NCBI GenBank assembly: GCA_034423175.1 | Contig: DAOUJA010000017.1 | Span: 20,638 to 84,637, forward strand | DNA: 64,000 nucleotides | Reading direction: 5' to 3' | From: Dehalococcoidia bacterium | GTDB taxonomy: Bacteria; Chloroflexota; Dehalococcoidia; Lucifugimonadales; Australimonadaceae | In this document: in pieces, positions 4,174-51,685 of the stretch | Layout of the letters: each line of letters opens with the position of its first letter | Position numbering within the stretch: the first letter of the stretch is position 1 | Position numbers and translations under genes: made by a program | The notes under the pieces: generated by a model | Told to the model about the DNA's origin: nothing | Seen by the model: only the letters and a program-made list of their open reading frames with translations | Database searches by the model: none

Positions 4174-5516
4174 CCTCCGTCGCGGTGCTCGGAGGCGGGC
4201 TGGCGGGCATGGCCGCGGCGTGGCGGCTCGTCAACGCGGGCTACCGCGTGACGCTCGTGGAGCGCAGACCGTACCTCGGCGGCAGGGCGTACTCGTTCGT
4301 CGACCGCGAGACCGGGCAGGAGATCGACAACGGCCAGCACGTCTTCCTCGGCTGCTGCGACGCCTACCGGACGTTCCTCGACGAGATAGGCTCGCTCGAA
4401 CTGACGAGCCGCCAGAAGCGGCTGCGCGTGGAGGTGCGCGCGCCGGACGGAAGGCGGGGCGTGCTCTCCGGCCTCGCCCTGCCCGCGCCGTTCCACCTGC
4501 TGCCGTCGCTGCTGCGCTACCCTCACATCAGCATATTGGAGCGGCTCCGCGCGATACCCGCGCTCCTGCTCATATGGCTGGAGCGCAACCGCGACCGCCC
4601 CGCGCTCCGACGGCAGTCGCTCCACCGCTGGCTGCGGTCGCACTGGCAGTCGGAGCGTTCCATATCCGTGTTCTGGGACCTCATCGTCGTCCCGGCGCTG
4701 AACGACTCGGCGGAGGACGTATCCGCGAGCGCCGGGTTCATGCTGTTCCAGGAGGCGCTGCTGCGCGATCGGAACGGCGGCAACATCGGCTTCGCGAAGG
4801 CCGGACTCTCCGCCGTGATGGGCGACGCCGTGCGCGAGCGGCTCACGGCCGCGGGCGCCAGCGTGCTGCTCGACAGGACGGCGGACGCGCTCGTCGTGGA
4901 GGACGGGCGCGTCACCGGCGTCCGCTTCATGGACGGCGGGACGCTGCCCGTGGACGCCTGCGTGAGCGCTCTCCCGCCGGACGGCCTGCTCCGCCTGCTG
5001 CCGGAGGAGGTGCGGGAGCACGCGGCCTTCGCTCCCGCCGCCACGCACACGTGGTCGCCCATCGTGAACCTGCACGTCTGGTACGACCGGCAAGTCGCGG
5101 ACTTCGACTTTCTCGCGTTCGTGGACAGCCCCGTCCAGTGGGTGTTCAACCGGACGGAGATTGCGGGCCTTGAGGGTCCGGGGCAGTACATCACCGTGTC
5201 GCTCTCCGGGGCATGGGAGTTCTGGCCGATGAGCAAGGAGGCGCTCCGCGAGACGTTCATCCCGGAGCTGGCGCGTCTCTTCCCCGCCGCGAAGGACGCG
5301 GAGATCACGCGGTTCGTCATCGTGAAGGAGCAGCGGGCGACGTTCCGCTCGCTCCCGGACGGGCCGGACAACCGCCTGCCGGCCGCCACTCCCCTGCCCA
5401 ACCTGTTCCTCGCGGGCGACTGGACGGACACCGGCTGGCCTGCAACGATGGAGAGCGCCGTGCGCAGCGGCAACATCGCCGCGGAGGCGGTACAGAAACG
5501 TGAGGCATTTGCGTAA
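4125..5516 (+). CDS. hpnE: FAD-dependent amine-oxidase-like oxidoreductase, HpnE-like (hydroxysqualene dehydroxylase)
   Basis: Dinucleotide-binding N-terminus VAVLGGGLAGMAAAWRLVNAGYRVTLVERRPYLGGRAYSF and C-terminal LFLAGDWTDTGWPATMESAVRSG. The start is uncertain; the ATG at 4125 overlaps the hpnD end. Confidence 0.75.
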   Translation: MQTVDNGPAPQRPEALTSVAVLGGGLAGMAAAWRLVNAGYRVTLVERRPYLGGRAYSFVDRETGQEIDNGQHVFLGCCDAYRTFLDEIGSLELTSRQKRLRVEVRAPDGRRGVLSGLALPAPFHLLPSLLRYPHISILERLRAIPALLLIWLERNRDRPALRRQSLHRWLRSHWQSERSISVFWDLIVVPALNDSAEDVSASAGFMLFQEALLRDRNGGNIGFAKAGLSAVMGDAVRERLTAAGASVLLDRTADALVVEDGRVTGVRFMDGGTLPVDACVSALPPDGLLRLLPEEVREHAAFAPAATHTWSPIVNLHVWYDRQVADFDFLAFVDSPVQWVFNRTEIAGLEGPGQYITVSLSGAWEFWPMSKEALRETFIPELARLFPAAKDAEITRFVIVKEQRATFRSLPDGPDNRLPAATPLPNLFLAGDWTDTGWPATMESAVRSGNIAAEAVQKREAFA

Positions 5517-5600
5517 GCCATCCACCTCCCTGTCTCCGCAGGAATCGGTCAGGCCGTGTGAAGGAATGAAGAACGAGAGGCATCCCATCCCGGCCCCACA

Positions 5601-5690
5601 CCGCGTGCGCTGCCCGCGCACTCTGGATTCCCGCCGGTGCGGGAATGACGGACCGCCAGCGTGGCGCCTTCTTCACGAGAACAACGCCCC
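5601..5690. repeat. dispersed hairpin repeat, family 1, copy b
   Basis: ccgcgtgcgctgcccgcgcactctggattcccgccggtgcgggaatgacggaccg, then a gtggcgccttcttcacgagaacaacgcccc tail that parallels copy a. Confidence 0.65.
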
Positions 5691-5714
5691 TTTCTCCCCG
5701 GCGAGGGACGCTCG

Positions 5715-6737
5715 ATGAACACGCTCGTGCTTGCGCCGTTCTCCGATGACGGGCTCGGGCGCCTTGCAGCGCTGGGGCGCGTTGTGCATGAGCCGTGGAC
5801 AGAGACGCGCACGCTCTGGGACCCTGAGGAGTTGGGCGCGCGGCTGACGAGCGAGGGGTTCGACGCGCTCGCGGTCGAGGCCGACTTCCTCTTCGAGGAG
5901 CTGTTCGACGCCGCGCCCGGACTGCGCATCGCGGCCATCTGCCGCGGCGACCTCCACCATGCCGACCTCGACGCCGCGACCGAGCGCGGCATCGCCGTGG
6001 TGCGCACGCCCGCGCGGAACGCGCAGGCCGTCGCCGAGTTCGCGGTCGCACAGATGCTCGCGCTCGCCCGCCATACGAGTATCGGAGAGCGGTACGTGCG
6101 GGAGGGCCGGTGGGAGGACCCCACGGAGCCGTATGTGCGCTTCCGGGGACAGGAGTTGGCCGGGGCGACGCTGGGGATCGTCGGCTTCGGGGCCATAGGC
6201 CGCATCGTCGCGCGGATCGCCGCCGGGTTCGGCATGCGCGTCCTCGCTTACGACCCTTACGTGTCTGCGTCCGCTGCAGCGGACGTGACCGAGGGCGTTG
6301 AGATGACCGGCCTCGAAGCATTGCTCGCCGCTGCGGACTTCGTGTCGATGCACGTGCCGGACACGCCGGAGACGATGGGGATGCTGGACGAGGCGCGCAT
6401 CGCGGCGATGAAGCCGGGTGCGTACCTCGTGAACGTGACCAACTCGTCGGTGGCGGACCGGGCGGCGCTTGCGGCGGCGCTGGCCTCGGGCAGGCTCGCC
6501 GGGGCCGCGCTCGACGTGCACGAGGCGCACCCCATCCCGCCCGACTCGCCGTTCCTCGGGCTGCCGAACGTGCTGCTCACGCCCCACATCGGCGGGGCGA
6601 CGCAGGAGACGATCGAGCGGCACTCCGCGATGGTGGCCGAGGACTTCGAGCGCTTCGCGCGCGGCGAGCAGCCGCTGCGGCTGGTCAACCCGGACGTGTG
6701 GGGGCGGAGGAGGAACCCCGGCCCACGCTCAGTCTGA
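5715..6737 (+). CDS. D-isomer-specific 2-hydroxyacid dehydrogenase (PGDH-like)
   Basis: GATLGIVGFGAIGRIVARIA NAD-binding motif, MHVPDTPETMGM and LLTPHIGGATQE. Confidence 0.85.
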   Translation: MNTLVLAPFSDDGLGRLAALGRVVHEPWTETRTLWDPEELGARLTSEGFDALAVEADFLFEELFDAAPGLRIAAICRGDLHHADLDAATERGIAVVRTPARNAQAVAEFAVAQMLALARHTSIGERYVREGRWEDPTEPYVRFRGQELAGATLGIVGFGAIGRIVARIAAGFGMRVLAYDPYVSASAAADVTEGVEMTGLEALLAAADFVSMHVPDTPETMGMLDEARIAAMKPGAYLVNVTNSSVADRAALAAALASGRLAGAALDVHEAHPIPPDSPFLGLPNVLLTPHIGGATQETIERHSAMVAEDFERFARGEQPLRLVNPDVWGRRRNPGPRSV

Positions 6738-6741
6738 CCCT

Positions 6742-7419
6742 TTACTTCAGGGAAGAGGGGGACAAGGCCGGATGCAAACGATGCAAGCCATCCTCCAGTG
6801 TGTGCTGAACGGCGACGGCCCGTGCATACGACAATCCGCCCTTAGCGAGGTCGTCCAGAGCGCAGGCAAGGTCAGGGGCGAACTCCCGGACTTGGTCTGC
6901 CATCTCCGGCCGGGAGAGCGGCATGACTCCCCGCTTCAAGAGCAGGGCGCGCGCGAGGTGGCTGGCGGCGTACAGGGATTGCTCTTCGAAGGCGTCCGTG
7001 TCACCGGTCTCCAGGAGTTGCCGCGCCCATCTCAGCGACTTCCCTGCCCGCGCCACCTTGGCGGTCCAGTCCGGCGAGTGCGGGTGTCTCAGTTCGTCCG
7101 CCGCCGTCCGAGCCCACCAGCCATCGGGATCATGCAGCGCTTTGCCGTACAAGAGCGCCCAGACGGGATAATCATCGCCTTCGCCGAGCCGTTGCAGGAA
7201 ATGCGCCCTGCTCTCCTGTTGGAGATGGACCTCGATCGGGGGCCGGATGCCCAGCCGTTCTTCACCCGAGAAGACGACGAGCAGGTCGATGTCGCTCCGC
7301 CAGGTCTCGACGCCGCGAGCCGCCGACCCTATCAGGACGACTGAGGCGCGCGCGCTCAAGCCTGCCCTCTCCAGTTGCTGGAGCAGCCAGTCTCCATATT
7401 CCCTGGATCCTGTTTTCAT
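6742..7419 (-). CDS. nucleotidyltransferase-domain protein with C-terminal helical (KNTase_C/HEPN-like) region
   Basis: LIGSAARGVETWRSDIDLLVV (GS...DxD minimal NTase motif). The start overlaps the upstream gene's stop by 1 nt (TGATG on the minus strand). Confidence 0.7.
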   Translation of the reverse strand: MKTGSREYGDWLLQQLERAGLSARASVVLIGSAARGVETWRSDIDLLVVFSGEERLGIRPPIEVHLQQESRAHFLQRLGEGDDYPVWALLYGKALHDPDGWWARTAADELRHPHSPDWTAKVARAGKSLRWARQLLETGDTDAFEEQSLYAASHLARALLLKRGVMPLSRPEMADQVREFAPDLACALDDLAKGGLSYARAVAVQHTLEDGLHRLHPALSPSSLK

Positions 7420-23333: not shown

Positions 23334-23370
23334 CCCTCACCCCAGCCCTCTCCCAGAGGGAGAGGGGAGC
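23334..23370. repeat. hairpin repeat family 2 copy
   Basis: ccctcaccccagccctctcccagagggagaggggagc. Confidence 0.6.
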
Positions 23371-23414
23371 AAGCCAAGGGGGCCGGCGAAAGTTTGGGGG
23401 GAAATTACTGCGCA

Positions 23415-23543: not shown

Positions 23544-23673
23544 CCGGTCTATCCGCGAGCGGCTACGCCACAAGCCAACGCCACACCCCAAGGACAGCGT
23601 ACGCGGCAAGGGGGCGATTGCGAAAGGGGCGCGTGTCGCGTCCGGGCGGGATGCGGGGAAGGGTTGCGGATTG

Positions 23674-23719
23674 CCCGAGGGATGTTTCGACTCCGCCTCC
23701 GGCTCCGCTCAACATGACA
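23674..23719. repeat. family 3 MITE right-arm copy
   Basis: cccgagggatgtttcgactccgcctccggctccgctcaacatgaca compared with 10601-10645. Confidence 0.6.
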
Positions 23720-23789: not shown

Positions 23790-25338
23790 ATGAACCCGGA
23801 AGACCAGGCCCGTGAACACATAGACCAGATGCTTCGCGACAGCGGCTGGGTCGTTCAAGACTACAAGGCCATCAACCTGTACGCGGGGCTCGGGGTAGCA
23901 GTTCGGGAGTTCGTTCTGAAGGACGGGCATGGCCGTGCGGACTACCTGCTGTACGTAGACCAAGCCGCGGTCGGCGTCGTGGAGGCGAAGCCCGTGGGCC
24001 ACACGCTCTCTGGCGTGGAGACGCAGACGGACAAGTACAGCGACGGTCTGCCCGACGAGTTGCCGTATTACCGCAAACCGCTGCCCTTTCTCTACCAGAG
24101 CACCGGCGTAGAGACGTGCTTCACGAACCTGTACGACCCCGACCCGCGCAGCAGGTCGCTCTTCACGTTCCACAGGCCCGAGACGATTGCAGAGTGGCTG
24201 GGCGTGGGTCCGCACGACGCGGGGCTGCAGGCCGCGGAGATCAAACGCGCTCCCTTCGTGACCACGTTCCTTGTTGCGATGCAGAACAACATGCCCCTGT
24301 TGGACACGCAGGGGTTATGGGGCGCACAGATCAACGCCATAAGCAACGTGGAGCGTTCCCTTGCGAGAGGAGACCCGCGCTTGCTCGTCCAGATGGCAAC
24401 CGGCAGCGGGAAGACCCGAATGGCCTGCGCCCTCGCCTACCGGCTCATCAGGTACGCAGGGGTAAAGCGCATCCTCTTCCTCGTGGACCGGAGCAACCTG
24501 GCGCGGCAGACGTTCCGCGAGTTCCAGGGCTACGACACGCCGGACGACGGCCGGAAGTTCACGGAACTCTACAACGTGCAGCACCTGCGCTCGGACCGCA
24601 TAGACCGGGTCAGCAACGTGTGCATCTCCACCATCCAGCGCGTCTACTCCATCCTCAAGGGAGAGCCCCTGGACGAAGAATGGGATGAGAGGTCCACCTA
24701 CGAAGCGGGGATGCTTCAGGGGGCGCAGGCAACGGTGGAGTACAACCCCTCCGTTCCCATCGAAACGTTCGACATCATCATTGTCGACGAGACGCACCGC
24801 TCCATCTACAACCTCTGGCGGCAGGTGCTGGAGTACTTCGACGCGCGGCTCATCGGGCTCACCGCCACGCCGTCCAAGCAGACCTTCGGCTTCTTCAGGC
24901 AGAACCTCGTTATGGAGTACGGCCGCGAGCAGGCTGTCGCAGACGGCGTCAACGTCGACTTCGACGTCTTCCGCATCAGGACGGAGATCACAGAGGGAGG
25001 CAGCACGGTAGAGGCGGGCTACTACGTGGACAAGCGCGACCGCGAGACGCGCGCCGTCCGGTGGGAGAAGCTGGACGACGACCTCGAATACGCGGCGTCG
25101 GACCTCGACCGGAGCGTCGTCGCGGAGGACCAGATACGCACCGTGCTGCAGGCGTTCAGGGAAGGCCTGCCAACGATGTTCCCGGGCCGTGATGACGTGC
25201 CGAAGACGCTCATCTTCGCCAAGGACGACAGCCACGCCGAGGACATCGTGCGCATCGCCAGGGAGGTGTTCGGCAAGGGCAACGAGTTCTGCCAGAAGAT
25301 CACGTACAAGACGACGGGCGCGAAGCCGGAGGACCTCC
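23790..25338 (+). pseudogene. hsdR: type I restriction R-subunit-like nuclease/helicase, 3'-truncated
   Basis: PD-(D/E)xK-like GRADYLLYVD...VGVVEAK and helicase motifs MATGSGKT, IIVDETHRS and LTATP. The sensible frame ends after KITYKTTGAKPEDLL, before motifs V/VI. Confidence 0.7.
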
Positions 25339-26238
25339 TCCACCGCACTCGCCCGCGCCGAGGGCCGCGACTACGAGCACGCGTCTGTATTGTTGGAGCG
25401 GATCGCGAAAGAGCGTCAGGCCCGGTGGGAATCCAGTGATAAGAGGCGAGGTCAGTACAAGGCACCCACTACACCAGACACTTCCATTCTGCCAGAACTT
25501 CCTCCAGGATGGGTTTGGGGTAGCATAGAGCAGATATCTGAAGTTGGCACAGGCTCCACTCCCCTCAAATCCCGATCGGAATTCTATGCGAATGGAACCG
25601 TCCCTTGGGCTACCAGTTCAGCGTTAAATCACCCTGAAATCCGTGCTCCCATAAGCTTTGTTACGGAGAAAGCCGTCCAAGAGTGCCATCTGTCGTACTA
25701 TCCGCCGCACACTTTGCTTGTCGCAATGTATGGCGAGGGCAGGACGCGTGGTAAGTGCGCCGAATTGATGTTCCACTCAACAATCAATCAGGCAATTGCC
25801 GCAATAGTAATGGAAGAATCTGCTGCGAACTGTCGTCACTACACTAAACTGTTTCTCGAAAGCAACTACATAGAGACTCGGCGGCTCTCTTCGGGTGGAG
25901 TACAACCGAATCTAAACCTCACATTGATTAAGGAGATTGCTGTTCCACTGCCGCCCTCGGCAGAGCAACTACGCATCATCGCGGAGGTGGATCGAAGACT
26001 GTCGGTAGCAGGGCAGGCCGAGGCTGCGCTTGAGGCCAACCTGAAGCGCGCCGAGCGGCTGCGGCAGGCCATCCTCAAACGCGCGTTCGAGGGTCGGCTC
26101 GTTCCCCGGGACCCGGACGACGAGCCCGCCTCGGTGCTGCTGGAGCGTATCAGGACGGAGAAGGCGAGCAAAGAGCGGGAGAGGCCAGGGAGGAGGAGAC
26201 TGGAATATCTAGTACCTACGAGTGAGTATGCGGAATAG
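25339..26238 (+). pseudogene. hsdS: type I specificity subunit fragment (central conserved region, one TRD, C-terminal conserved region)
   Basis: ASVLLERIAKERQ...LPPGWVWGSIEQISEVGTGSTP...GGVQPNLNLTLIKEIAVPLPPSAEQLRIIAEV...ASVLLERIRTEKA. There is no ATG between the junction and the TRD. The G+C falls to about 50 percent in the TRD. Confidence 0.6.
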
Positions 26239-27202
26239 CCACCCACTGGCGCTGCGGCACCATGTTGATTCCCCTCTTTATGCATCTCGTGATTAGCATC
26301 CTCCCGTCAAGCCTGGAATCTTCTGCTGCGTTCATGTAGTGACTGATAACAGAATCTATTGTGCTTTCTGTTTCTGGGTCGTCTATGAGCAATCCCAATC
26401 TGATCATACCTCCCATGCTATGGTGGGTGCCGAAACTCACATAGTCGAACAAGTCGCGATTCATAACGAATTGGTAGATGGCAGGATATTCAAGCGACGT
26501 GAATGGACTCCATTCGTGCATATCGCACCAATCCTTGACAGTTGTTGGAGTTTTATTGGCGCGAGAAGGGTGCGCGCAGAAACCTTCTTCAATGCCCCAG
26601 AGGACCATTCCCATGGTGTTGTCGGGTTGGTAGTGCTGGCAATTTTGACAAGCTGCGCCACCGTGACGGTCAAATGGCGTTCCCGTTTCAGGGAGTAGTG
26701 TAATCAGCCTCCAGTGTTTCATGTTGCTTACAAACACAGCCCTATGAGGCACACCGTCTATGAAGCCTTGCAACACCAATCTTATTTCGCCATTCTTATC
26801 CTCTTCTCGGAGCGGCACCGCGTTAGCAAAATCAAACCTGCTGATCTCTGGCCAATCCGTTCTCTTTCCGTCATCTTTCGATGCGTGGTACCGTCGGTTT
26901 CTCTTACTCCACTCGACAATACCGAACGGCGTGGCGATTGCTTGGCTGTCGCAATGCGGGCATACCTCCAGCTGGCCACCTGTGGACAACCAAGCATGAA
27001 TGCCGTCAGGGGCACGTTCGCACTTGCCGTCGCGTGCCCTTCGTTCCTTCTCCATCAGTGCGTCGCGGTCGTAAACGCTCATCAGGTTTGCGCATCGCTC
27101 ACACCAGCGCGCGCCAAGCGAAAGCCTCTCGGCTACGATGCCGTCTGCATCGCCACAGAGAGCGCCGCCATTAGGGCGAACCTTATGAACAACGACGGAC
27201 AT
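26216..27202 (-). CDS. Cys-rich hypothetical protein (328 aa), no family recognised
   Basis: AAGGGAG SD 7 nt before the ATG. Three CxxC pairs (CERC, CPHC, CQNC). G+C about 50 percent. The 3' end overlaps the hsdS fragment's 3' end by 23 nt. Confidence 0.6.
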   Translation of the reverse strand: MSVVVHKVRPNGGALCGDADGIVAERLSLGARWCERCANLMSVYDRDALMEKERRARDGKCERAPDGIHAWLSTGGQLEVCPHCDSQAIATPFGIVEWSKRNRRYHASKDDGKRTDWPEISRFDFANAVPLREEDKNGEIRLVLQGFIDGVPHRAVFVSNMKHWRLITLLPETGTPFDRHGGAACQNCQHYQPDNTMGMVLWGIEEGFCAHPSRANKTPTTVKDWCDMHEWSPFTSLEYPAIYQFVMNRDLFDYVSFGTHHSMGGMIRLGLLIDDPETESTIDSVISHYMNAAEDSRLDGRMLITRCIKRGINMVPQRQWVAIPHTHS

Positions 27203-27341
27203 CCGCGAACTCCCTTTGGGCTGTAACTGCCCACTGACAACAGTCTACCGCACCGCCTTGTGAACAGAGACCTTGGCGTAGCTCGTCACGGAGCGCGGGC
27301 TGCGAGCGGTGCGTTATCCTGACGCTCCTCTGGAGGGGCGC

Positions 27342-28820
27342 ATGACGACGAACGGCCAGATCGGGCAGAAGGTGTGGAGCTACTGCAACGTCCTGCGGGA
27401 TGCGGGGCTCTCCTACGGCGACTACCTGGAGCAGATCACCTACCTGCTCTTTCTCAAGATGATGGACGAGCGCTCCAAGCCGCCGTACACGCTCATGCCC
27501 GGGCACGTTCCGCCGCCGATACCGGAGCACCACAACTGGCAGAGCTTGGTGGAGTTGGACGGGCCGGACTTGGAAACGCACTACCGCTCTACGCTGGCCG
27601 CGCTGGGGCGGGAGCGGGGGGCGCTGGGCCTCATCTTCCGCAGGGCGCAGAACAAGGTGCAGGACCCCGCGATGCTGCGCCGCCTCGTGGTCGACCTCGT
27701 CGGCACGGAGAACTGGTCGGCGATGGGAAGCGACGTGAAGGGCAGCGTCTACGAGGAGCTGCTGGAGCGGTACGCGCAGGACGTTAAAGCGGGTGCGGGG
27801 CAGTACTTCACGCCCCGCTCGCTCATCGCCGCCATCGTGGACGTGATGCACCCCGAGCCGGACACGACGGTCTGTGACCCCGCAGCCGGCACAGGCGGCT
27901 TTCTCCTCCGCGCCCACGACTACATCGTCGAGCACAATCCTCACCTGAGCAAGGATGAACTCGACGCGCTGAAGAACGACGCGCTCTCCGGCTGGGAGAT
28001 CGTGCAGCAGACGGCACGGCTCTGCGTGATGAACCTCTACCTGCACGGCATCGGCGGGGACGAGCCCACCATCACTGTGGACGACAGTCTTCGCTCCCGC
28101 CACGGCGAGTACGGGATGGTGCTCACCAATCCGCCGTTCGGCAAGAAGTCGTCGCTGTCGTACGGGCTGGACGAGGACGGGGCCGACGACGACCTCCTCG
28201 TGGAGCGGGATGACTTCTGGGCCACAACGAAGAACAAGCAGCTGAACTTCCTGCAGCACGTGCGCTCCATCCTGAAGATCAACGGGCGCGCCGCCATTGT
28301 GGTGCCGGACAACGTGCTGTTCGAGGGCGGCGCGGGCGAGACGATACGCAAGCGCCTGCTGCACGAGTGCGACGTCCATACGCTGCTGCGCCTACCGACC
28401 GGCATCTTCTACGCGCAGGGCGTCAAAGCGAACGTGCTCTTCTTCGACCGCAAACCCGCAAGCGAGACGCCGTGGACGAAGATGCTCTGGATATACGACC
28501 TGCGCACGAACAAGCACTTCACGCTCAAGACGAAACAGATGGGCCGTGCCGACCTCGACGATTTCGTGGCCTGCTTCAATCCCGCCAATCGCTACGAGCG
28601 GCAGGAGACGGAGCGTTTCCATTCTTTCTCCTATGATGACCTCGTCAAGCGCGACAAGGTCAACATGGACATCACCTGGCTCCGCGACGAGAGCGTCGAG
28701 GACGCCGCGTCGCTCCCGGAGCCGGAGGCGCTGGCGGAGGAGATCGTCGAGGACCTGCAGACGGCGCTGGACCAGTTCGCCGCGATCAGCGCGGACCTTG
28801 GCGCGGAGGCCTCTTCATGA
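27342..28820 (+). CDS. hsdM: type I R-M N6-adenine DNA methyltransferase subunit
   Basis: HsdM N-terminal domain (IGQKVWSYCNVLRDAGLSYGDYLEQITYLLFLKMM), motif I DPAAGTGGFL and motif IV NPPFG. Confidence 0.9.
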   Translation: MTTNGQIGQKVWSYCNVLRDAGLSYGDYLEQITYLLFLKMMDERSKPPYTLMPGHVPPPIPEHHNWQSLVELDGPDLETHYRSTLAALGRERGALGLIFRRAQNKVQDPAMLRRLVVDLVGTENWSAMGSDVKGSVYEELLERYAQDVKAGAGQYFTPRSLIAAIVDVMHPEPDTTVCDPAAGTGGFLLRAHDYIVEHNPHLSKDELDALKNDALSGWEIVQQTARLCVMNLYLHGIGGDEPTITVDDSLRSRHGEYGMVLTNPPFGKKSSLSYGLDEDGADDDLLVERDDFWATTKNKQLNFLQHVRSILKINGRAAIVVPDNVLFEGGAGETIRKRLLHECDVHTLLRLPTGIFYAQGVKANVLFFDRKPASETPWTKMLWIYDLRTNKHFTLKTKQMGRADLDDFVACFNPANRYERQETERFHSFSYDDLVKRDKVNMDITWLRDESVEDAASLPEPEALAEEIVEDLQTALDQFAAISADLGAEASS

Positions 28821-49741: not shown

Positions 49742-51685
49742 ATGACCACATTCACGACGAATCCCGTCACTCTCAAGACGCTGCTCCAACAGGTGAGCAG
49801 CGGAGAGATACGACTGCCCGACTTCCAGCGCGGGTGGATATGGGATGACAATCGCATTCGGGAACTGCTAGTAAGCATCTCGCGAGGTTTTCCCATCGGA
49901 GCCGTTATGACACTCCACACAGGGGGTGACATCAATTTCAACACTCGCTTGGTTCAAGGAGTGAATAACCAACAGGCCATAAGTGAGGTAAATCAATTCC
50001 TTCTCGACGGTCAACAGCGGCTTACTTCTCTATGGCAAGCACTAATGTCCCCAGAGCCAGTCTTGACCAGAGACAACCGCGGTGGCCACATCGAGCGTTT
50101 GTACTACGTTGATGTTCTCCAGGCGTTAGACGACTTTACCGATCAAGAGACGGTTGTTCGCAGTGTACCTAGTAACAGGCAGATAAGAGATTTCCGGCGT
50201 GAAATGATACTCGATGTTTCGACTCCTGAACTTGAATATCAGAACCATCTAATTCCTACCTGGCAAGTATTCAACGCAGTGAATTGGATATTTGGCTACG
50301 ATGCCTATTGGCGTGAGCAAGGCCGCGAGCATCCTAGTGGGGACCTCAACCTATTTAGGGAGCGTATTCAAAATGAGATAAGTAATGCTTTTGCCGGATA
50401 TAATATACCCGTCATCGCTTTAGGTGCAGAAACTCCAAAAGAAGCTGTCTGCACTGTTTTCGAAAAGGTCAATACAGGAGGTGTCCCTCTCACAGTTTTT
50501 GAGTTAGTGACCGCTTCATTTGCCGCAAGCGACTTCCCATTGCGGGACAACTGGGATGAGCGGCGTAAACGAATGCGTCGAGAATCTGTTCTCCACGGCA
50601 TTGAAGGCGAACAGTTCTTACAGGCTGTTGCGCTCCTGGCAACTCAAGAACGCCGGAGAGCCAAGGTTCAAGAGCAACCTGATGCTCCTCCCAACCAGAT
50701 TCCTCGTATCGGTTGCCAGAAACGCGATGTCCTCAGCTTGACTCTCGATGAATACCTAGTTTGGGCAGACAAGGTTGAACAGGGCTTCTTCGAAGCGGCA
50801 AAGTTCCTTCATTCGCAGTACGTCTTCAATGCTTGGGACGTACCCTACGCTACGCAACTAGTGCCGCTCGCAGTGCTATTCGTAGAACTCGGTAGCGACT
50901 TGGAAGACGCCAATGCAAGGGAACGACTGGAACACTGGTACTGGTCGGGAATCTTCGGCGAAGCCTACGGGAGCGCCATTGAGACACAGTACGCGCGCGA
51001 CTTGGAGCAGGTGGCAGTATACGTTCGGACGGGTGCAGAGCCCTTACTAGTGGAGGAGGCTAACTTCGTTCCCCAACGACTCCTCACCCTTCGGACACGC
51101 AACATCGCGGCCTACAAGGGGCTTTACGCTCTCCAAATGAAGAGCGGCGCGGCTGATTGGCGTACAGGCGAAAAACTCACCTTGGCAACCTACCATGACG
51201 AGGCCATCGACATTCACCATATCTTCCCTGTCGCATGGTGCCAAGCAGACCCACCCATTCCTGCAGACCTGTATAACTCCATCATCAACAAGACTCCTAT
51301 CGACGCAGGCACCAACAGGAGGATCGGCGGACGAGCACCTTCCGAGTACCTCCCTAGGCTCAGGACCCGCTATTCCAACCTTGACGAAGCCCTCCAAGCC
51401 CATTGGGTCAACCCTGAGCACCTAGAAGAGGACGACTTCTACACCAGTTTCATCGAGCGGGGTGAGCAGATGCTCAGCCTTATCGGCAATGCGATGCGGA
51501 AGGACATACAGGGTGGGAGAGAAGTGTTCCGCACCGCACTGCTTCGAGGCATGCCTGAAGACCTCATTCCTGAAGGCGAAGCCGAAGATGCAGACGACGA
51601 TGCCGAGCTACAGGAGTTCGACGACAACGAAAATGAGTATGATGACGTGAGTAATGCCGAGTACGGCGTAGAAGACGACGAATAG
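49742..51685 (+). CDS. GmrSD-type protein (N-terminal DUF262 ParB-like NTPase, C-terminal DUF1524 His-Me finger nuclease)
   Basis: LPDFQRGWIWDD, LLDGQQRLTSL and C-terminal AIDIHHIFP...NSIINKTPIDAGTNRRIG. G+C about 50 percent. Confidence 0.85.
   Translation: MTTFTTNPVTLKTLLQQVSSGEIRLPDFQRGWIWDDNRIRELLVSISRGFPIGAVMTLHTGGDINFNTRLVQGVNNQQAISEVNQFLLDGQQRLTSLWQALMSPEPVLTRDNRGGHIERLYYVDVLQALDDFTDQETVVRSVPSNRQIRDFRREMILDVSTPELEYQNHLIPTWQVFNAVNWIFGYDAYWREQGREHPSGDLNLFRERIQNEISNAFAGYNIPVIALGAETPKEAVCTVFEKVNTGGVPLTVFELVTASFAASDFPLRDNWDERRKRMRRESVLHGIEGEQFLQAVALLATQERRRAKVQEQPDAPPNQIPRIGCQKRDVLSLTLDEYLVWADKVEQGFFEAAKFLHSQYVFNAWDVPYATQLVPLAVLFVELGSDLEDANARERLEHWYWSGIFGEAYGSAIETQYARDLEQVAVYVRTGAEPLLVEEANFVPQRLLTLRTRNIAAYKGLYALQMKSGAADWRTGEKLTLATYHDEAIDIHHIFPVAWCQADPPIPADLYNSIINKTPIDAGTNRRIGGRAPSEYLPRLRTRYSNLDEALQAHWVNPEHLEEDDFYTSFIERGEQMLSLIGNAMRKDIQGGREVFRTALLRGMPEDLIPEGEAEDADDDAELQEFDDNENEYDDVSNAEYGVEDDE

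What the first reader, a model, noticed from the sequence alone, without database searches (positions are those of the whole stretch)
26216..27202. Low-GC Cys-rich orphan gene embedded antisense inside a type I R-M locus
Seen in the sequence:
- A 328-aa ORF on the minus strand has a good SD (AAGGGAG, 7-nt spacing).
- It sits between the hsdS fragment and hsdM. It is divergent from hsdM, sharing a 139-bp intergenic region.
- It is convergent with the hsdS fragment, and the two 3' ends overlap by 23 nt.
- G+C is about 50 percent, the lowest in the window.
- It contains three CxxC pairs (CERC and CPHC in the first 90 aa, CQNC centrally) plus further conserved-looking Cys and His residues (FCAHPS, WCDMHEW).
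- I recognise no family.

Established knowledge: type I R-M loci are known landing pads for extra defence genes. PrrC and RloC anticodon nucleases and Abi genes are found embedded in hsd operons.

Inference: this may be an R-M-embedded accessory defence gene or a regulator with zinc-ribbon modules.
Basis: partly seen in the sequence, partly recalled or inferred. Interest (0 to 1): 0.6.

Follow-up and report, generated by a model that had tools for sequence, protein, structure and literature searches.

The report
Orphan metal-binding gene in restriction-modification slot
A real but almost unique 328-residue cysteine-rich gene sits backwards in a frequently swapped cargo position between the specificity and methylase genes of a type I restriction-modification cassette; this is a known kind of arrangement for accessory defence or toxin genes, and its own function is still untested.

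Summary
The ORF is real. It spans window 26216-27202 on the minus strand, encodes 328 aa, and has an AAGGGAG Shine-Dalgarno site 7 nt upstream of the ATG. Against a 75%-identical homolog its dN/dS is 0.17. Its G+C is 52.9%, which is the second lowest in the window, not the lowest.

Only three copies were found among about 15 billion proteins and several contig collections. All three lie antisense between hsdS and hsdM of one clade of type I R-M cassettes with the order hsdR-hsdS-hsdM.

In 15 related loci this S-M junction is a variable slot:
- It is empty in 4 loci.
- Elsewhere it holds HicAB, a HigB/Gp49-like module, a DUF4160/DUF2442 pair, an antisense Fic gene, HEPN plus a STAND NTPase, or small tail-anchored proteins.
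- Close relatives at the same chromosomal site carry different cargo.

So "R-M-embedded accessory cargo" is supported. A regulator role is disfavoured. A defence role rests only on genomic association.

No library gave a significant hit, and AlphaFold2 failed (pLDDT 36-38). One weak lead remains: C185/C188/C209/C226 align with the four [4Fe-4S] ligands of HiPIPs (hhalign probability 68%).

In this window the host R-M itself is broken by a 1.9-kb hsdR-hsdS deletion.

Verdict: a new orphan member of a known kind, of moderate interest.

The parts
26216..27202 (-). Gene X: 328-aa Cys/His-rich orphan protein
   Evidence: ORF. The 75%-identical full-length homolog P0002 gives dN/dS 0.17. A third, partial copy is in L021. 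No family hit.
26195..27291 (.). X cargo cassette (~1.1 kb): the segment absent from related R-M cassettes
   Evidence: blastn against L006/L007/L009/L020. Homology to the hsdS 3' end stops at ~26191-26198 and resumes upstream of hsdM at ~27292-27306. The right-hand border is the same in all three X loci. No terminal inverted repeats or target duplication.
27203..27291 (-). Conserved 89-nt leader/promoter region of X, including the SD AAGGGAG at 27210-27216
   Evidence: Alignment of the three X upstream regions; sequence. The sigma-70 consensus scan found no promoter.
26951..27187 (-). N-terminal Cys/His groups (H6, C16, C34xxC37; C61, H69, C81xxC84): putative zinc knuckles or ribbons
   Evidence: Conserved in P0002. 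H6, C16, C34, C37, C61 and H69 are also conserved in the L021 fragment. Metal binding is inferred, not tested.
26510..26656 (-). Central 4-Cys motif (C185xxC188...C209...C226), HiPIP-like
   Evidence: Pfam HIPIP on the P0002 fragment: E=0.0068, 17.1 bits, below the cut-off of 22. hhalign against 5 PDB HiPIPs: probability 67.7%, P=4.9e-5, all 4 ligand Cys aligned. Shuffle controls: 1/300 and 0/300 reached the observed score.
25348..26238 (+). hsdS remnant (central conserved region, TRD2 and C-terminal conserved region); its last 23 nt overlap the X 3' end
   Evidence: Pfam Methylase_S E=1.9e-13. blastn/tblastn mapping onto intact hsdS genes.
23790..25439 (+). Truncated hsdR (homologous up to 25342, then an out-of-frame tail)
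   Evidence: Pfam ResIII/SWI2_SNF2/HSDR_N. Intact homologs are 936-942 aa and carry EcoEI_R_C. The deletion was mapped.
25342..25348 (.). Junction of the ~1.9-kb deletion that removed the 3' half of hsdR and TRD1 of hsdS
   Evidence: L002rc 5088-6977 has no counterpart in the window. The same junction appears against L007, L009 and L020.
27342..28820 (+). hsdM (492 aa), intact
   Evidence: Pfam N6_Mtase E=1.2e-64 and HsdM_N. 87-91% identical to the HsdM of related cassettes. dN/dS 0.17.
27292..27341 (+). hsdM-proximal upstream segment conserved regardless of slot content
   Evidence: blastn matches to L006, L007 and L020 start at 27292-27306.

Best explanation
X is a genuine, horizontally exchanged single-gene cargo cassette of about 1.1 kb.

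Where it sits. It occupies a recombination-prone slot between hsdS and hsdM. The host is a clade of type I R-M cassettes with the order hsdR-hsdS-hsdM and an HsdR that carries an EcoEI_R_C domain. The conserved hsdS 3' region and the hsdM 5' region flank the slot and probably act as homology arms. That would explain why closely related cassettes at the same chromosomal site carry different cargo.

What the product looks like. It is a cytoplasmic metalloprotein. It has two N-terminal Cys/His knuckle pairs that are probably Zn sites. It also has a central four-Cys motif resembling the [4Fe-4S] site of HiPIPs.

Most likely function (inference). The other occupants of the slot are HicAB, a HigB-like module, Fic, HEPN plus a STAND NTPase, and DUF4160/DUF2442. 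By analogy, X is most likely a self-contained accessory immunity or addiction effector that travels with the R-M system and complements it. In this reading the Cys/His modules bind nucleic acid, the cluster domain stabilises or gates an enzymatic activity, and triggering during phage infection halts growth or degrades nucleic acid.

Shown: coding status, rarity, position, slot variability, Cys conservation.
Inferred: metal binding, nucleic-acid targeting, the defence or toxin role, and any coupling to the R-M complex.
For: - Real gene. ORF and SD are present. dN/dS is 0.17 overall, 0.12 for the N-terminal half and 0.23 for the C-terminal half. The antisense frame gives 1.7.
- Cargo. GC3 is 0.51-0.58, against 0.90 for hsdM and hsdR.
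- Position. All three copies lie in the same antisense position and share the same cassette borders.
- Slot variability. L010, L016, L017 and L026 are empty. L006, L009 and L020 hold a 121-125 aa tail-anchored protein. L007 holds DUF5678 plus Gp49. L014 holds HicB/HicA. L015 holds an antisense Fic gene that overlaps the hsdS 3' end. L022 holds HEPN_RiboL-PSP plus NB-ARC/NACHT. L025 holds DUF4160/DUF2442.
- Cargo swapping between close relatives. L002 and L007 have 97% identical HsdM and the same downstream amidohydrolase gene, but carry X and a TA module respectively. The window and L020 share the mutS2 flank, but carry X and a small tail-anchored protein respectively.
- Metal motif.
- Published precedent for embedded defence genes in type I R-M loci: PrrC (PMC12707154), TgvAB (PMC11411939) and 'guilt-by-embedding' (bioRxiv 10.1101/2024.01.29.577857).
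Against: - There is no functional or expression data.
- There is no significant homology to any defence, toxin or nuclease family.
- Structure prediction failed.
- The family is extremely rare: three loci in about 15 billion proteins. That would also fit a drifting hitchhiker gene.
- X is intact in a window whose R-M is already broken. It is therefore not obviously dependent on, or lethal without, a complete R-M complex.
- The HiPIP signal is below Pfam's threshold, and the window's own sequence did not trigger it.
- Payne et al. report that more than half of embedded genes have no assigned function, so embedding alone is a weak predictor.
Confidence: 0.45

Rival explanations
1. X is functionally neutral or non-defence hitchhiker cargo. 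For example, it could be a redox or metal-binding protein from a lower-GC donor that was captured in a recombination hotspot. It would then persist without contributing to immunity or addiction.
For: - The family is extremely rare.
- It has foreign codon usage.
- No defence-family hit.
- The only weak similarity is to an electron-carrier family, HiPIP.
- More than 50% of embedded genes lack an assigned function (10.1101/2024.01.29.577857).
Against: - Purifying selection (omega 0.17) has been maintained over dS of about 0.8.
- The other slot occupants that could be annotated are TA-, Abi- or defence-type rather than metabolic.
- The same position and orientation is kept in three loci.
Confidence: 0.25
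2. X is a PrrC-like guard that is physically coupled to the type I R-M complex. It would be held inactive by HsdM/HsdS/HsdR and released when a phage anti-restriction protein inhibits the enzyme.
For: - X is found exclusively inside this R-M cassette.
- Precedent of PrrC within EcoprrI (PMC12707154).
Against: - There is no similarity to PrrC or RloC and no NTPase motif.
- X is intact in a window where hsdR and hsdS are deleted. A de-repressed guard would be expected to be counter-selected there.
- The slot's cargo is exchangeable and of unrelated types, which argues for autonomous modules.
Confidence: 0.1
3. X regulates the R-M system. It would act either as a Zn-finger DNA-binding controller of the divergent hsdM promoter, or through its antisense transcription across the hsdS 3' end.
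For: - X is divergent from hsdM across a 139-bp spacer and overlaps the hsdS 3' end by 23 nt.
- It has a conserved 89-nt leader.
- It has Cys/His knuckles.
Against: - X is present in only 3 of 15 related cassettes, and four cassettes have S and M directly abutting.
- The hsdM-proximal 50 bp is conserved independently of the cargo.
- No HTH or other DNA-binding family was detected.
- 328 aa is large for a C-protein-type controller.
Confidence: 0.1
4. X is an orphan DNA endonuclease, either type IV/modification-dependent or type II-like. Restriction endonucleases typically lack detectable homologs and often carry Cys4 metal sites.
For: - Orphan status, size and low GC.
- Cys/His clusters.
- Precedent of type IV TgvAB embedded in a type I locus (PMC11411939).
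Against: - No HNH, PD-(D/E)xK, GIY-YIG or GmrSD signature was detected by any profile.
- No structural model is available to test for a nuclease fold.
Confidence: 0.08
5. The ORF is spurious, or the real gene is on the opposite strand.
For: ORFs of 119 and 170 aa exist on the + strand within the region. The 170-aa ORF has a counterpart of the same length in L002.
Against: - The X frame has omega 0.12 and 84% aa identity. The exact-complement 170-aa frame has omega 1.7 and 59% identity.
- The antisense ORF stays open only because TTA, CTA and TCA codons are absent from the first 165 codons of X.
- The 328-codon frame and the SD are kept in all copies.
Confidence: 0.02

Closest known systems
Genes embedded in type I R-M, BREX, DISARM and Hma systems ('guilt-by-embedding' candidates; Payne et al. 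2024, bioRxiv 10.1101/2024.01.29.577857)
   Same: - A single gene nested between the subunits of an otherwise canonical type I R-M operon.
- It recurs in independent loci and is not a mobility gene.
- Neighbouring cassettes carry known defence or TA genes in the same place.
   Different: - X matches none of the PADLOC v2.0.0 models.
- It is antisense to the operon. Payne et al. required all R-M system genes to lie on one strand.
- It is far rarer than their abundance cut-offs.
PrrC / RloC anticodon nucleases embedded in type I R-M loci (PMC12707154, PMC3874168)
   Same: An accessory gene located inside an hsd locus that travels with it.
   Different: - No sequence similarity, no ABC-ATPase/NTPase domain and no anticodon-nuclease motif.
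- It sits between hsdS and hsdM on the opposite strand.
- It is intact where the R-M is broken.
TgvAB, a GmrSD-like type IV system embedded in the Vibrio cholerae VPI-2 type I R-M cluster (PMC11411939)
   Same: Demonstrates that genes interrupting a type I operon can be autonomous defence systems that complement the R-M.
   Different: - TgvAB is a two-gene system with DUF262/DUF1524 domains, and X has neither.
- A separate GmrSD_N gene does exist elsewhere in this window at 49742-51685.
Antisense Fic/DOC gene in the same slot (locus L015, Gemmatimonadales MAG)
   Same: A single large gene on the opposite strand between hsdS and hsdM. Its 3' end overlaps the hsdS 3' end. The architecture is the same as for X.
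   Different: Unrelated protein. Fic has the HPFx[D/E]GNGR motif and Pfam PF02661, and X has no such motif.
High-potential iron-sulfur proteins (HiPIP, Pfam PF01355; PDB 1CKU, 2HIP, 1HPI, 1HLQ, 8Z82)
   Same: - The C-x2-C...C...C pattern has the matching local context (CxNCxxY, GxC, V-x-x-WC).
- All four cluster ligands align.
   Different: - HiPIPs are free-standing electron carriers of about 55-85 residues; from my own knowledge they are periplasmic and exported.
- Here the motif is an internal segment of a 328-aa protein. On reading the N-terminus I see no signal peptide; no predictor was run.
- The score is below Pfam's cut-off.
- There are 6- and 3-residue insertions in the loops.

Membership tests
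R-M-embedded accessory cargo (guilt-by-embedding class) | Located between subunit genes of an otherwise complete type I R-M system | tested here: met
   In L001/L002/L003 the order is hsdR (940 aa), hsdS (504 aa), X antisense, hsdM (492 aa), and all are intact. The window has the same order, but hsdR and hsdS are truncated.
R-M-embedded accessory cargo (guilt-by-embedding class) | The embedding position is variable: related systems lack the gene or carry other cargo there | tested here: met
   15 related loci were examined. 4 are empty, 3 carry X and 8 carry other cargo.
R-M-embedded accessory cargo (guilt-by-embedding class) | Not a mobility gene (transposase, integrase or IS) | tested here: met
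   No Pfam, NCBIfam or PHROG hit. No terminal inverted repeats or target duplication. No additional copies elsewhere.
R-M-embedded accessory cargo (guilt-by-embedding class) | Confers phage resistance, abortive infection or addiction | not testable with these tools
   Requires cloning and phage, toxicity or plasmid-stability assays.
PrrC/RloC anticodon nucleases | N-terminal ABC-ATPase-like NTPase domain and C-terminal anticodon-nuclease domain, detectable with PADLOC or Pfam models | tested here: not met
   No PADLOC or Pfam hit at E<=1. On reading the sequence I found no Walker A motif.
HiPIP (PF01355) | Four Cys ligands in the pattern CxxC-(n)-C-(n)-C with conserved aromatic/Gly context | tested here: met
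   C185, C188, C209 and C226 align with C43, C46, C63 and C77 of 1CKU. They are conserved in both full-length copies.
HiPIP (PF01355) | Score at or above Pfam's gathering threshold (22 bits) | tested here: not met
   17.1 bits (E=0.0068) for the P0002 fragment and 13.4 bits for full-length P0002. The window's own sequence gave no hit. phmmer against the PDB did not retrieve HiPIPs.
HiPIP (PF01355) | Profile-profile similarity beyond the Cys spacing | tested here: inconclusive
   hhalign probability is 67.7% for the domain and 38.5% for the whole protein. The observed score was reached by 1/300 full column shuffles and 0/300 shuffles with the Cys columns fixed. The comparison was chosen after seeing the Pfam hit.
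HiPIP (PF01355) | Small free-standing exported electron carrier | tested here: not met
   The motif is internal (residues ~183-231 of 328). On reading the N-terminus I saw no twin-arginine or other signal peptide; no signal-peptide predictor was run.
Type II toxin-antitoxin module | Two adjacent small genes (toxin plus antitoxin) in one cassette | tested here: not met
   The 1.1-kb cassette holds only X. The BrnT_toxin lead (E=0.11) was rejected: hhalign probability 0.3%, and 52/200 shuffles reached the observed score.
R-M controller (C) protein / transcription regulator | HTH or other recognised DNA-binding domain, and co-distribution with the R-M it controls | tested here: not met
   No HTH family hit. 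X is present in 3 of 15 related cassettes.
Zinc-ribbon proteins | Two CxxC (or Cys/His) knuckles separated by a short beta-hairpin region that bind Zn | tested here: inconclusive
   The pattern C16...C34xxC37 and C61...C81xxC84 is conserved. No zinc-ribbon profile matched and the AF2 model is unreliable.

The most novel reading that the evidence does not exclude
X founds a new family of iron-sulfur/zinc-containing anti-phage effectors. These would be carried as exchangeable cargo in the hsdS-hsdM slot of R-S-M-ordered type I R-M cassettes, and would be functionally coupled to the R-M system. One form of coupling would be sensing its inhibition, or DNA damage, through a HiPIP-like redox-active cluster.
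Probability: 0.12. Interest if true: 0.65.

Novelty: new member of a known kind. Interest (0 to 1): 0.38.

Why it matters
If X is an active effector, it would add a new sequence-orphan protein family to the set of defence genes nested inside R-M systems. A HiPIP-like cluster has not, to my knowledge, been described in a defence protein; one literature search for HiPIP together with restriction-modification returned nothing relevant.

Independently of X, the comparison shows a compact hot-swap slot in this R-S-M-ordered type I clade. The clade spans Chloroflexia, Armatimonadetes, Gemmatimonadales, Nitrospirales and Solirubrobacteraceae MAGs. The hsdS-hsdM junction is bounded by conserved coding sequence, so it could be mined systematically for new TA or defence cargo.

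As it stands the finding is an uncharacterised orphan in a known type of context.

Tried and rejected
- Family libraries. Pfam, NCBIfam, PADLOC and PHROGs gave nothing on the full protein. Fragment scans at E<=10 gave only sub-threshold noise: Jiv90, HAND, Znf_XAF1_N, YokU and BrnT.
- BrnT_toxin lead. Rejected by hhalign against PDB 7VD7/3U97: probability 0.3%, and 52/200 shuffles reached the observed score.
- Homolog searches:
  - The word-indexed search of 5.8 billion clusters, with the single sequence and with the 2-sequence profile at E<=10, found only self and P0002.
  - The exhaustive phmmer search of 1.84 billion representatives found only self.
  - Back-translated scans of genome, metagenome and viral contigs found nothing new.
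  - tblastn against the phage and plasmid collections found no match.
- PDB sequence searches with the profile and with fragments gave nothing meaningful.
- AlphaFold2. The full-length 2-sequence alignment gave pLDDT 35.9. The 76-residue Cys domain gave pLDDT 38.2. No fold search was run, because such models give meaningless matches.
- IS or transposon idea. No terminal inverted repeats or target duplications, and no multiple copies.
- Opposite-strand gene. Rejected by frame-specific dN/dS.
- RNA elements. No Rfam family or tRNA anywhere in the window. No sigma-70-type promoter or convincing terminator around X.
Full report
**1. The observation**

The minus-strand ORF at window 26216..27202 exists and encodes 328 aa from an ATG. 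AAGGGAG lies at 27210-27216, followed by a 7-nt spacer and then the ATG at 27202.

Its 3' end overlaps the + strand ORF carrying the hsdS remnant (25189..26238) by 23 nt. Its start is 139 bp from the hsdM ATG at 27342. CERC, CPHC, CQNC, FCAHPS and WCDMHEW are all present.

Two compositional statements need correcting:
- G+C is 52.9% (GC3 58%), not about 50%.
- The lowest-GC kilobase of the window is 49844-50830 at 48.8%. That stretch belongs to a GmrSD_N-domain gene.

The contrast with the neighbours is nevertheless real. hsdM has GC3 of 0.905 and the hsdR remnant 0.878.

**2. It is a real gene**

A full-length homolog, P0002, is 328 aa and 75% identical with no gaps.
- Nei-Gojobori dN/dS is 0.17 (dS 0.84). 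This equals the 0.17 found for hsdM between the same two loci (dS 0.41).
- The N-terminal 163 codons give omega 0.12 and the C-terminal half 0.23.
- A 170-aa ORF on the opposite strand (26714..27226 +) has a same-length counterpart in L002. It lies in the exact-complement frame. It stays open only because X uses no TTA, CTA or TCA codon in its first ~165 codons. Its omega is 1.7 and its aa identity 59%, so it is a by-product.

**3. Rarity**

No further relative turned up in any of these searches:
- the word-indexed search of 5.8 billion clusters, at E<=0.01 with the sequence and at E<=10 with the two-sequence profile;
- the exhaustive phmmer search of 1.84 billion representatives;
- back-translated scans of GTDB genomes, JGI metagenomes and IMG/VR;
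- tblastn against phage and plasmid collections.

A third, partial copy was found by chance at the edge of contig L021 while inspecting HsdM relatives. Its first 70 codons have a GTG start and are 83.7% nt identical to the window. H6, C16, C34, C37, C61 and H69 are conserved.

**4. Context**

In L001/L002/L003 (GCA_001753005.1, JGI 3300002734) X lies inside an intact cassette. The order is hsdR (940 aa, with ResIII/SWI2_SNF2/EcoEI_R_C), hsdS (504 aa), X antisense, and hsdM (492 aa). The chromosomal flanks differ from those of the window. L021 also has X antisense upstream of hsdM.

The window has the same order, but about 1.9 kb is missing. L002rc 5088-6977 has no counterpart, and the junction is at window 25342/25348. 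As a result:
- hsdR is cut after about 520 codons and runs into an out-of-frame tail.
- hsdS has lost TRD1.
- Restriction must therefore be dead here, while hsdM and X are intact.

**5. The hsdS-hsdM junction is a variable cargo slot**

I examined the nearest HsdM relatives, their contigs and GTDB loci. The order hsdR-hsdS-hsdM holds down to 55% HsdM identity, in MAGs labelled Chloroflexia, Armatimonadetes, Gemmatimonadales, Nitrospirales and Solirubrobacteraceae.

| Slot content | Loci |
|---|---|
| Empty, S and M abutting or overlapping | L010, L016, L017, L026/27 |
| 121-125 aa protein with a hydrophobic C-terminal tail | L006, L009, L020 (L020 also has a 57-aa RelB-like ORF) |
| DUF5678 plus Gp49/HigB-like | L007 |
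| HicB, HicA and an HTH protein | L014 |
| 497-aa Fic gene, antisense, overlapping the hsdS 3' end | L015 |
| HEPN_RiboL-PSP plus an 882-aa NB-ARC/NACHT protein | L022-24 |
| DUF4160/DUF2442 | L025 |
| X, antisense | window, L001-3, L021 |

Cargo does not follow cassette phylogeny.
- L002 and L007 have 97% identical HsdM and share the downstream amidohydrolase gene. They carry X and a TA module respectively.
- The window and L020 share the mutS2 flank and have 89% identical HsdM. They carry X and the small tail-anchored protein respectively.

Against these relatives the X-specific segment is about 26195-27291. The right-hand border (…TCGTGACGAG…) is the same in all three X loci. The 89-nt leader is conserved. 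No terminal inverted repeats or target-site duplications flank it.

Slot genes in general have lower GC3 than hsdM, 0.51-0.83 against 0.87-0.98. The simplest reading is cassette exchange by homologous recombination between the conserved hsdS 3' and hsdM 5' sequences. This is inference.

**6. What the protein is**

No Pfam, NCBIfam, PADLOC or PHROG hit at E<=1, and nothing in PDB sequences. AlphaFold2 on the two-sequence alignment gave pLDDT 35.9. On the 76-residue Cys domain it gave 38.2. No fold search was justified.

Fragment scans at E<=10 produced two leads.

(a) HIPIP (PF01355).
- The score on P0002 residues 179-227 was E=0.0068 and 17.1 bits, below the cut-off of 22. The window's own fragment did not hit.
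- I recovered authentic HiPIP sequences from the PDB (1CKU, 2HIP, 1HPI, 8Z82, 1HLQ).
- hhalign against X residues 169-244 gave probability 67.7% and P=4.9e-5. C185, C188, C209 and C226 aligned with the four cluster ligands. With the whole protein the probability was 38.5%.
- In 300 column shuffles, one reached the observed score. With the Cys columns fixed, none of 300 did.
- I regard a HiPIP-like 4-Cys iron-sulfur site as plausible, at roughly 40-50%, but not established.

(b) BrnT_toxin (E=0.11).
- This lead was rejected. hhalign against 7VD7/3U97 gave probability 0.3%, and 52/200 shuffles reached the observed score.

The N-terminal C16...C34xxC37 and C61/H69...C81xxC84 groups are conserved and look like zinc knuckles. 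This is pattern reading only.

**7. Mechanism**

Shown: X is a conserved coding gene, and it is exchangeable cargo of a slot that otherwise carries toxin-antitoxin, Fic, HEPN/STAND and small tail-anchored-protein genes.

Inferred:
- X is an autonomous accessory immunity or addiction effector that accompanies the R-M system.
- The Cys/His modules contact nucleic acid.
- A cluster-binding domain supports or gates an activity that is triggered on infection.

Published precedents for functional genes nested in type I loci are PrrC (PMC12707154), RloC (PMC3874168), TgvAB (PMC11411939) and the guilt-by-embedding survey. That survey also states that more than half of embedded genes have no assigned function (10.1101/2024.01.29.577857).

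I give about 0.45 to the defence/addiction reading as a whole. The rivals are:
- neutral hitchhiker cargo, 0.25;
- a PrrC-like guard coupled to the complex, 0.10, weakened because X is intact beside a broken R-M;
- an R-M regulator, 0.10, weakened by patchy distribution, the absence of a DNA-binding family hit, and a cargo-independent hsdM upstream segment;
- an orphan endonuclease, 0.08;
- a spurious ORF, 0.02.

**8. Comparison and novelty**

The arrangement is a known kind: accessory genes embedded in type I R-M operons. The protein itself belongs to no described family, fails the membership tests for PrrC/RloC, TA toxins and C-proteins, and only partly meets those for HiPIP.

Two details are unusual but not unique. 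One is the antisense orientation with 3' overlap of hsdS, which is shared by the Fic gene in L015. The other is the R-S-M gene order. From my own knowledge, the classical E. coli type IA and IB loci are ordered R-M-S and type IC is M-S-R.

I classify it as a new member of a known kind, with moderate interest (0.38). A specialist would not be surprised by an orphan gene in this place. The hot-swap slot and the possible Fe-S effector are nevertheless worth an experiment.

Noticed in passing
window 23790-26238 (junction 25342/25348): A ~1.9-kb deletion relative to intact homologous cassettes fuses hsdR (after about 520 codons) to the central conserved region of hsdS. The type I system in this window can no longer restrict, although hsdM and X are intact.
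   Followed up: yes
window 49742-51685 (+): A 647-aa gene with a GmrSD_N domain (PF03235, E=3e-28). By eye it also has a C-terminal HHIFP His-Me-like motif. It lies in the lowest-GC patch of the window (48.8%) and is probably a separate type IV restriction gene.
   Followed up: partly
window 23334-23371, 23595-23637, 23675-23719; L002 4753-4837; L007 4892-4961 and 5724-5800; L020 7569-7608 and 8066-8109; L021 ~320-400, 465-504 and 898-987: Short REP-like repeats (CCCTCTCCCT..AGGGGAGAGGGTTAGGGTGAGGGTG) recur next to the R-M cassette and inside the S-M slot of several loci, in both orientations. They may mark or promote the rearrangements.
   Followed up: partly
L006 2703-3077; L009 7615-7980; L020 6973-7350: A family of 121-125 aa proteins occupies the same slot in three cassettes on the sense strand. 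They share the motifs LDAMP and WLVPLI and a hydrophobic C-terminal tail, and have no Pfam hit. This is another uncharacterised cargo family.
   Followed up: partly
L015 1669-3162 (-): A 497-aa Fic/DOC gene lies antisense between hsdS and hsdM and overlaps the hsdS 3' end by about 98 nt. This is the same architecture as X with an unrelated protein.
   Followed up: yes
L022 3523-6943: The slot holds a HEPN_RiboL-PSP protein (240 aa) followed by an 882-aa NB-ARC/NACHT STAND NTPase. This is defence-type cargo in the same position.
   Followed up: partly
L022 1246-1905; L025 4211-4843; L026 4788-5381: A second insertion position exists between hsdR and hsdS. In the more distant cassettes it is occupied by a 197-219 aa gene without a Pfam hit.
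   Followed up: no
L006 1126-2621: hsdS is split into two half-genes of 257 aa and about 228-269 aa, each with one target recognition domain.
   Followed up: no
window 26714-27226 (+) and L002 4901-5413 (-): A 170-aa ORF lies exactly antisense to the X 5' half and is kept open in both loci. Frame-specific dN/dS (1.7 against 0.12 for X) shows it is a codon-usage by-product.
   Followed up: yes
window 27230-27250 (-) and equivalents in L002/L021: The conserved X leader contains GTGCGGTAGACTGTTGTCAGT. This includes a TAGACT -10-like hexamer and an ACTG-N4-CAGT inverted repeat in the window and L002. It could be a promoter or operator.
   Followed up: no
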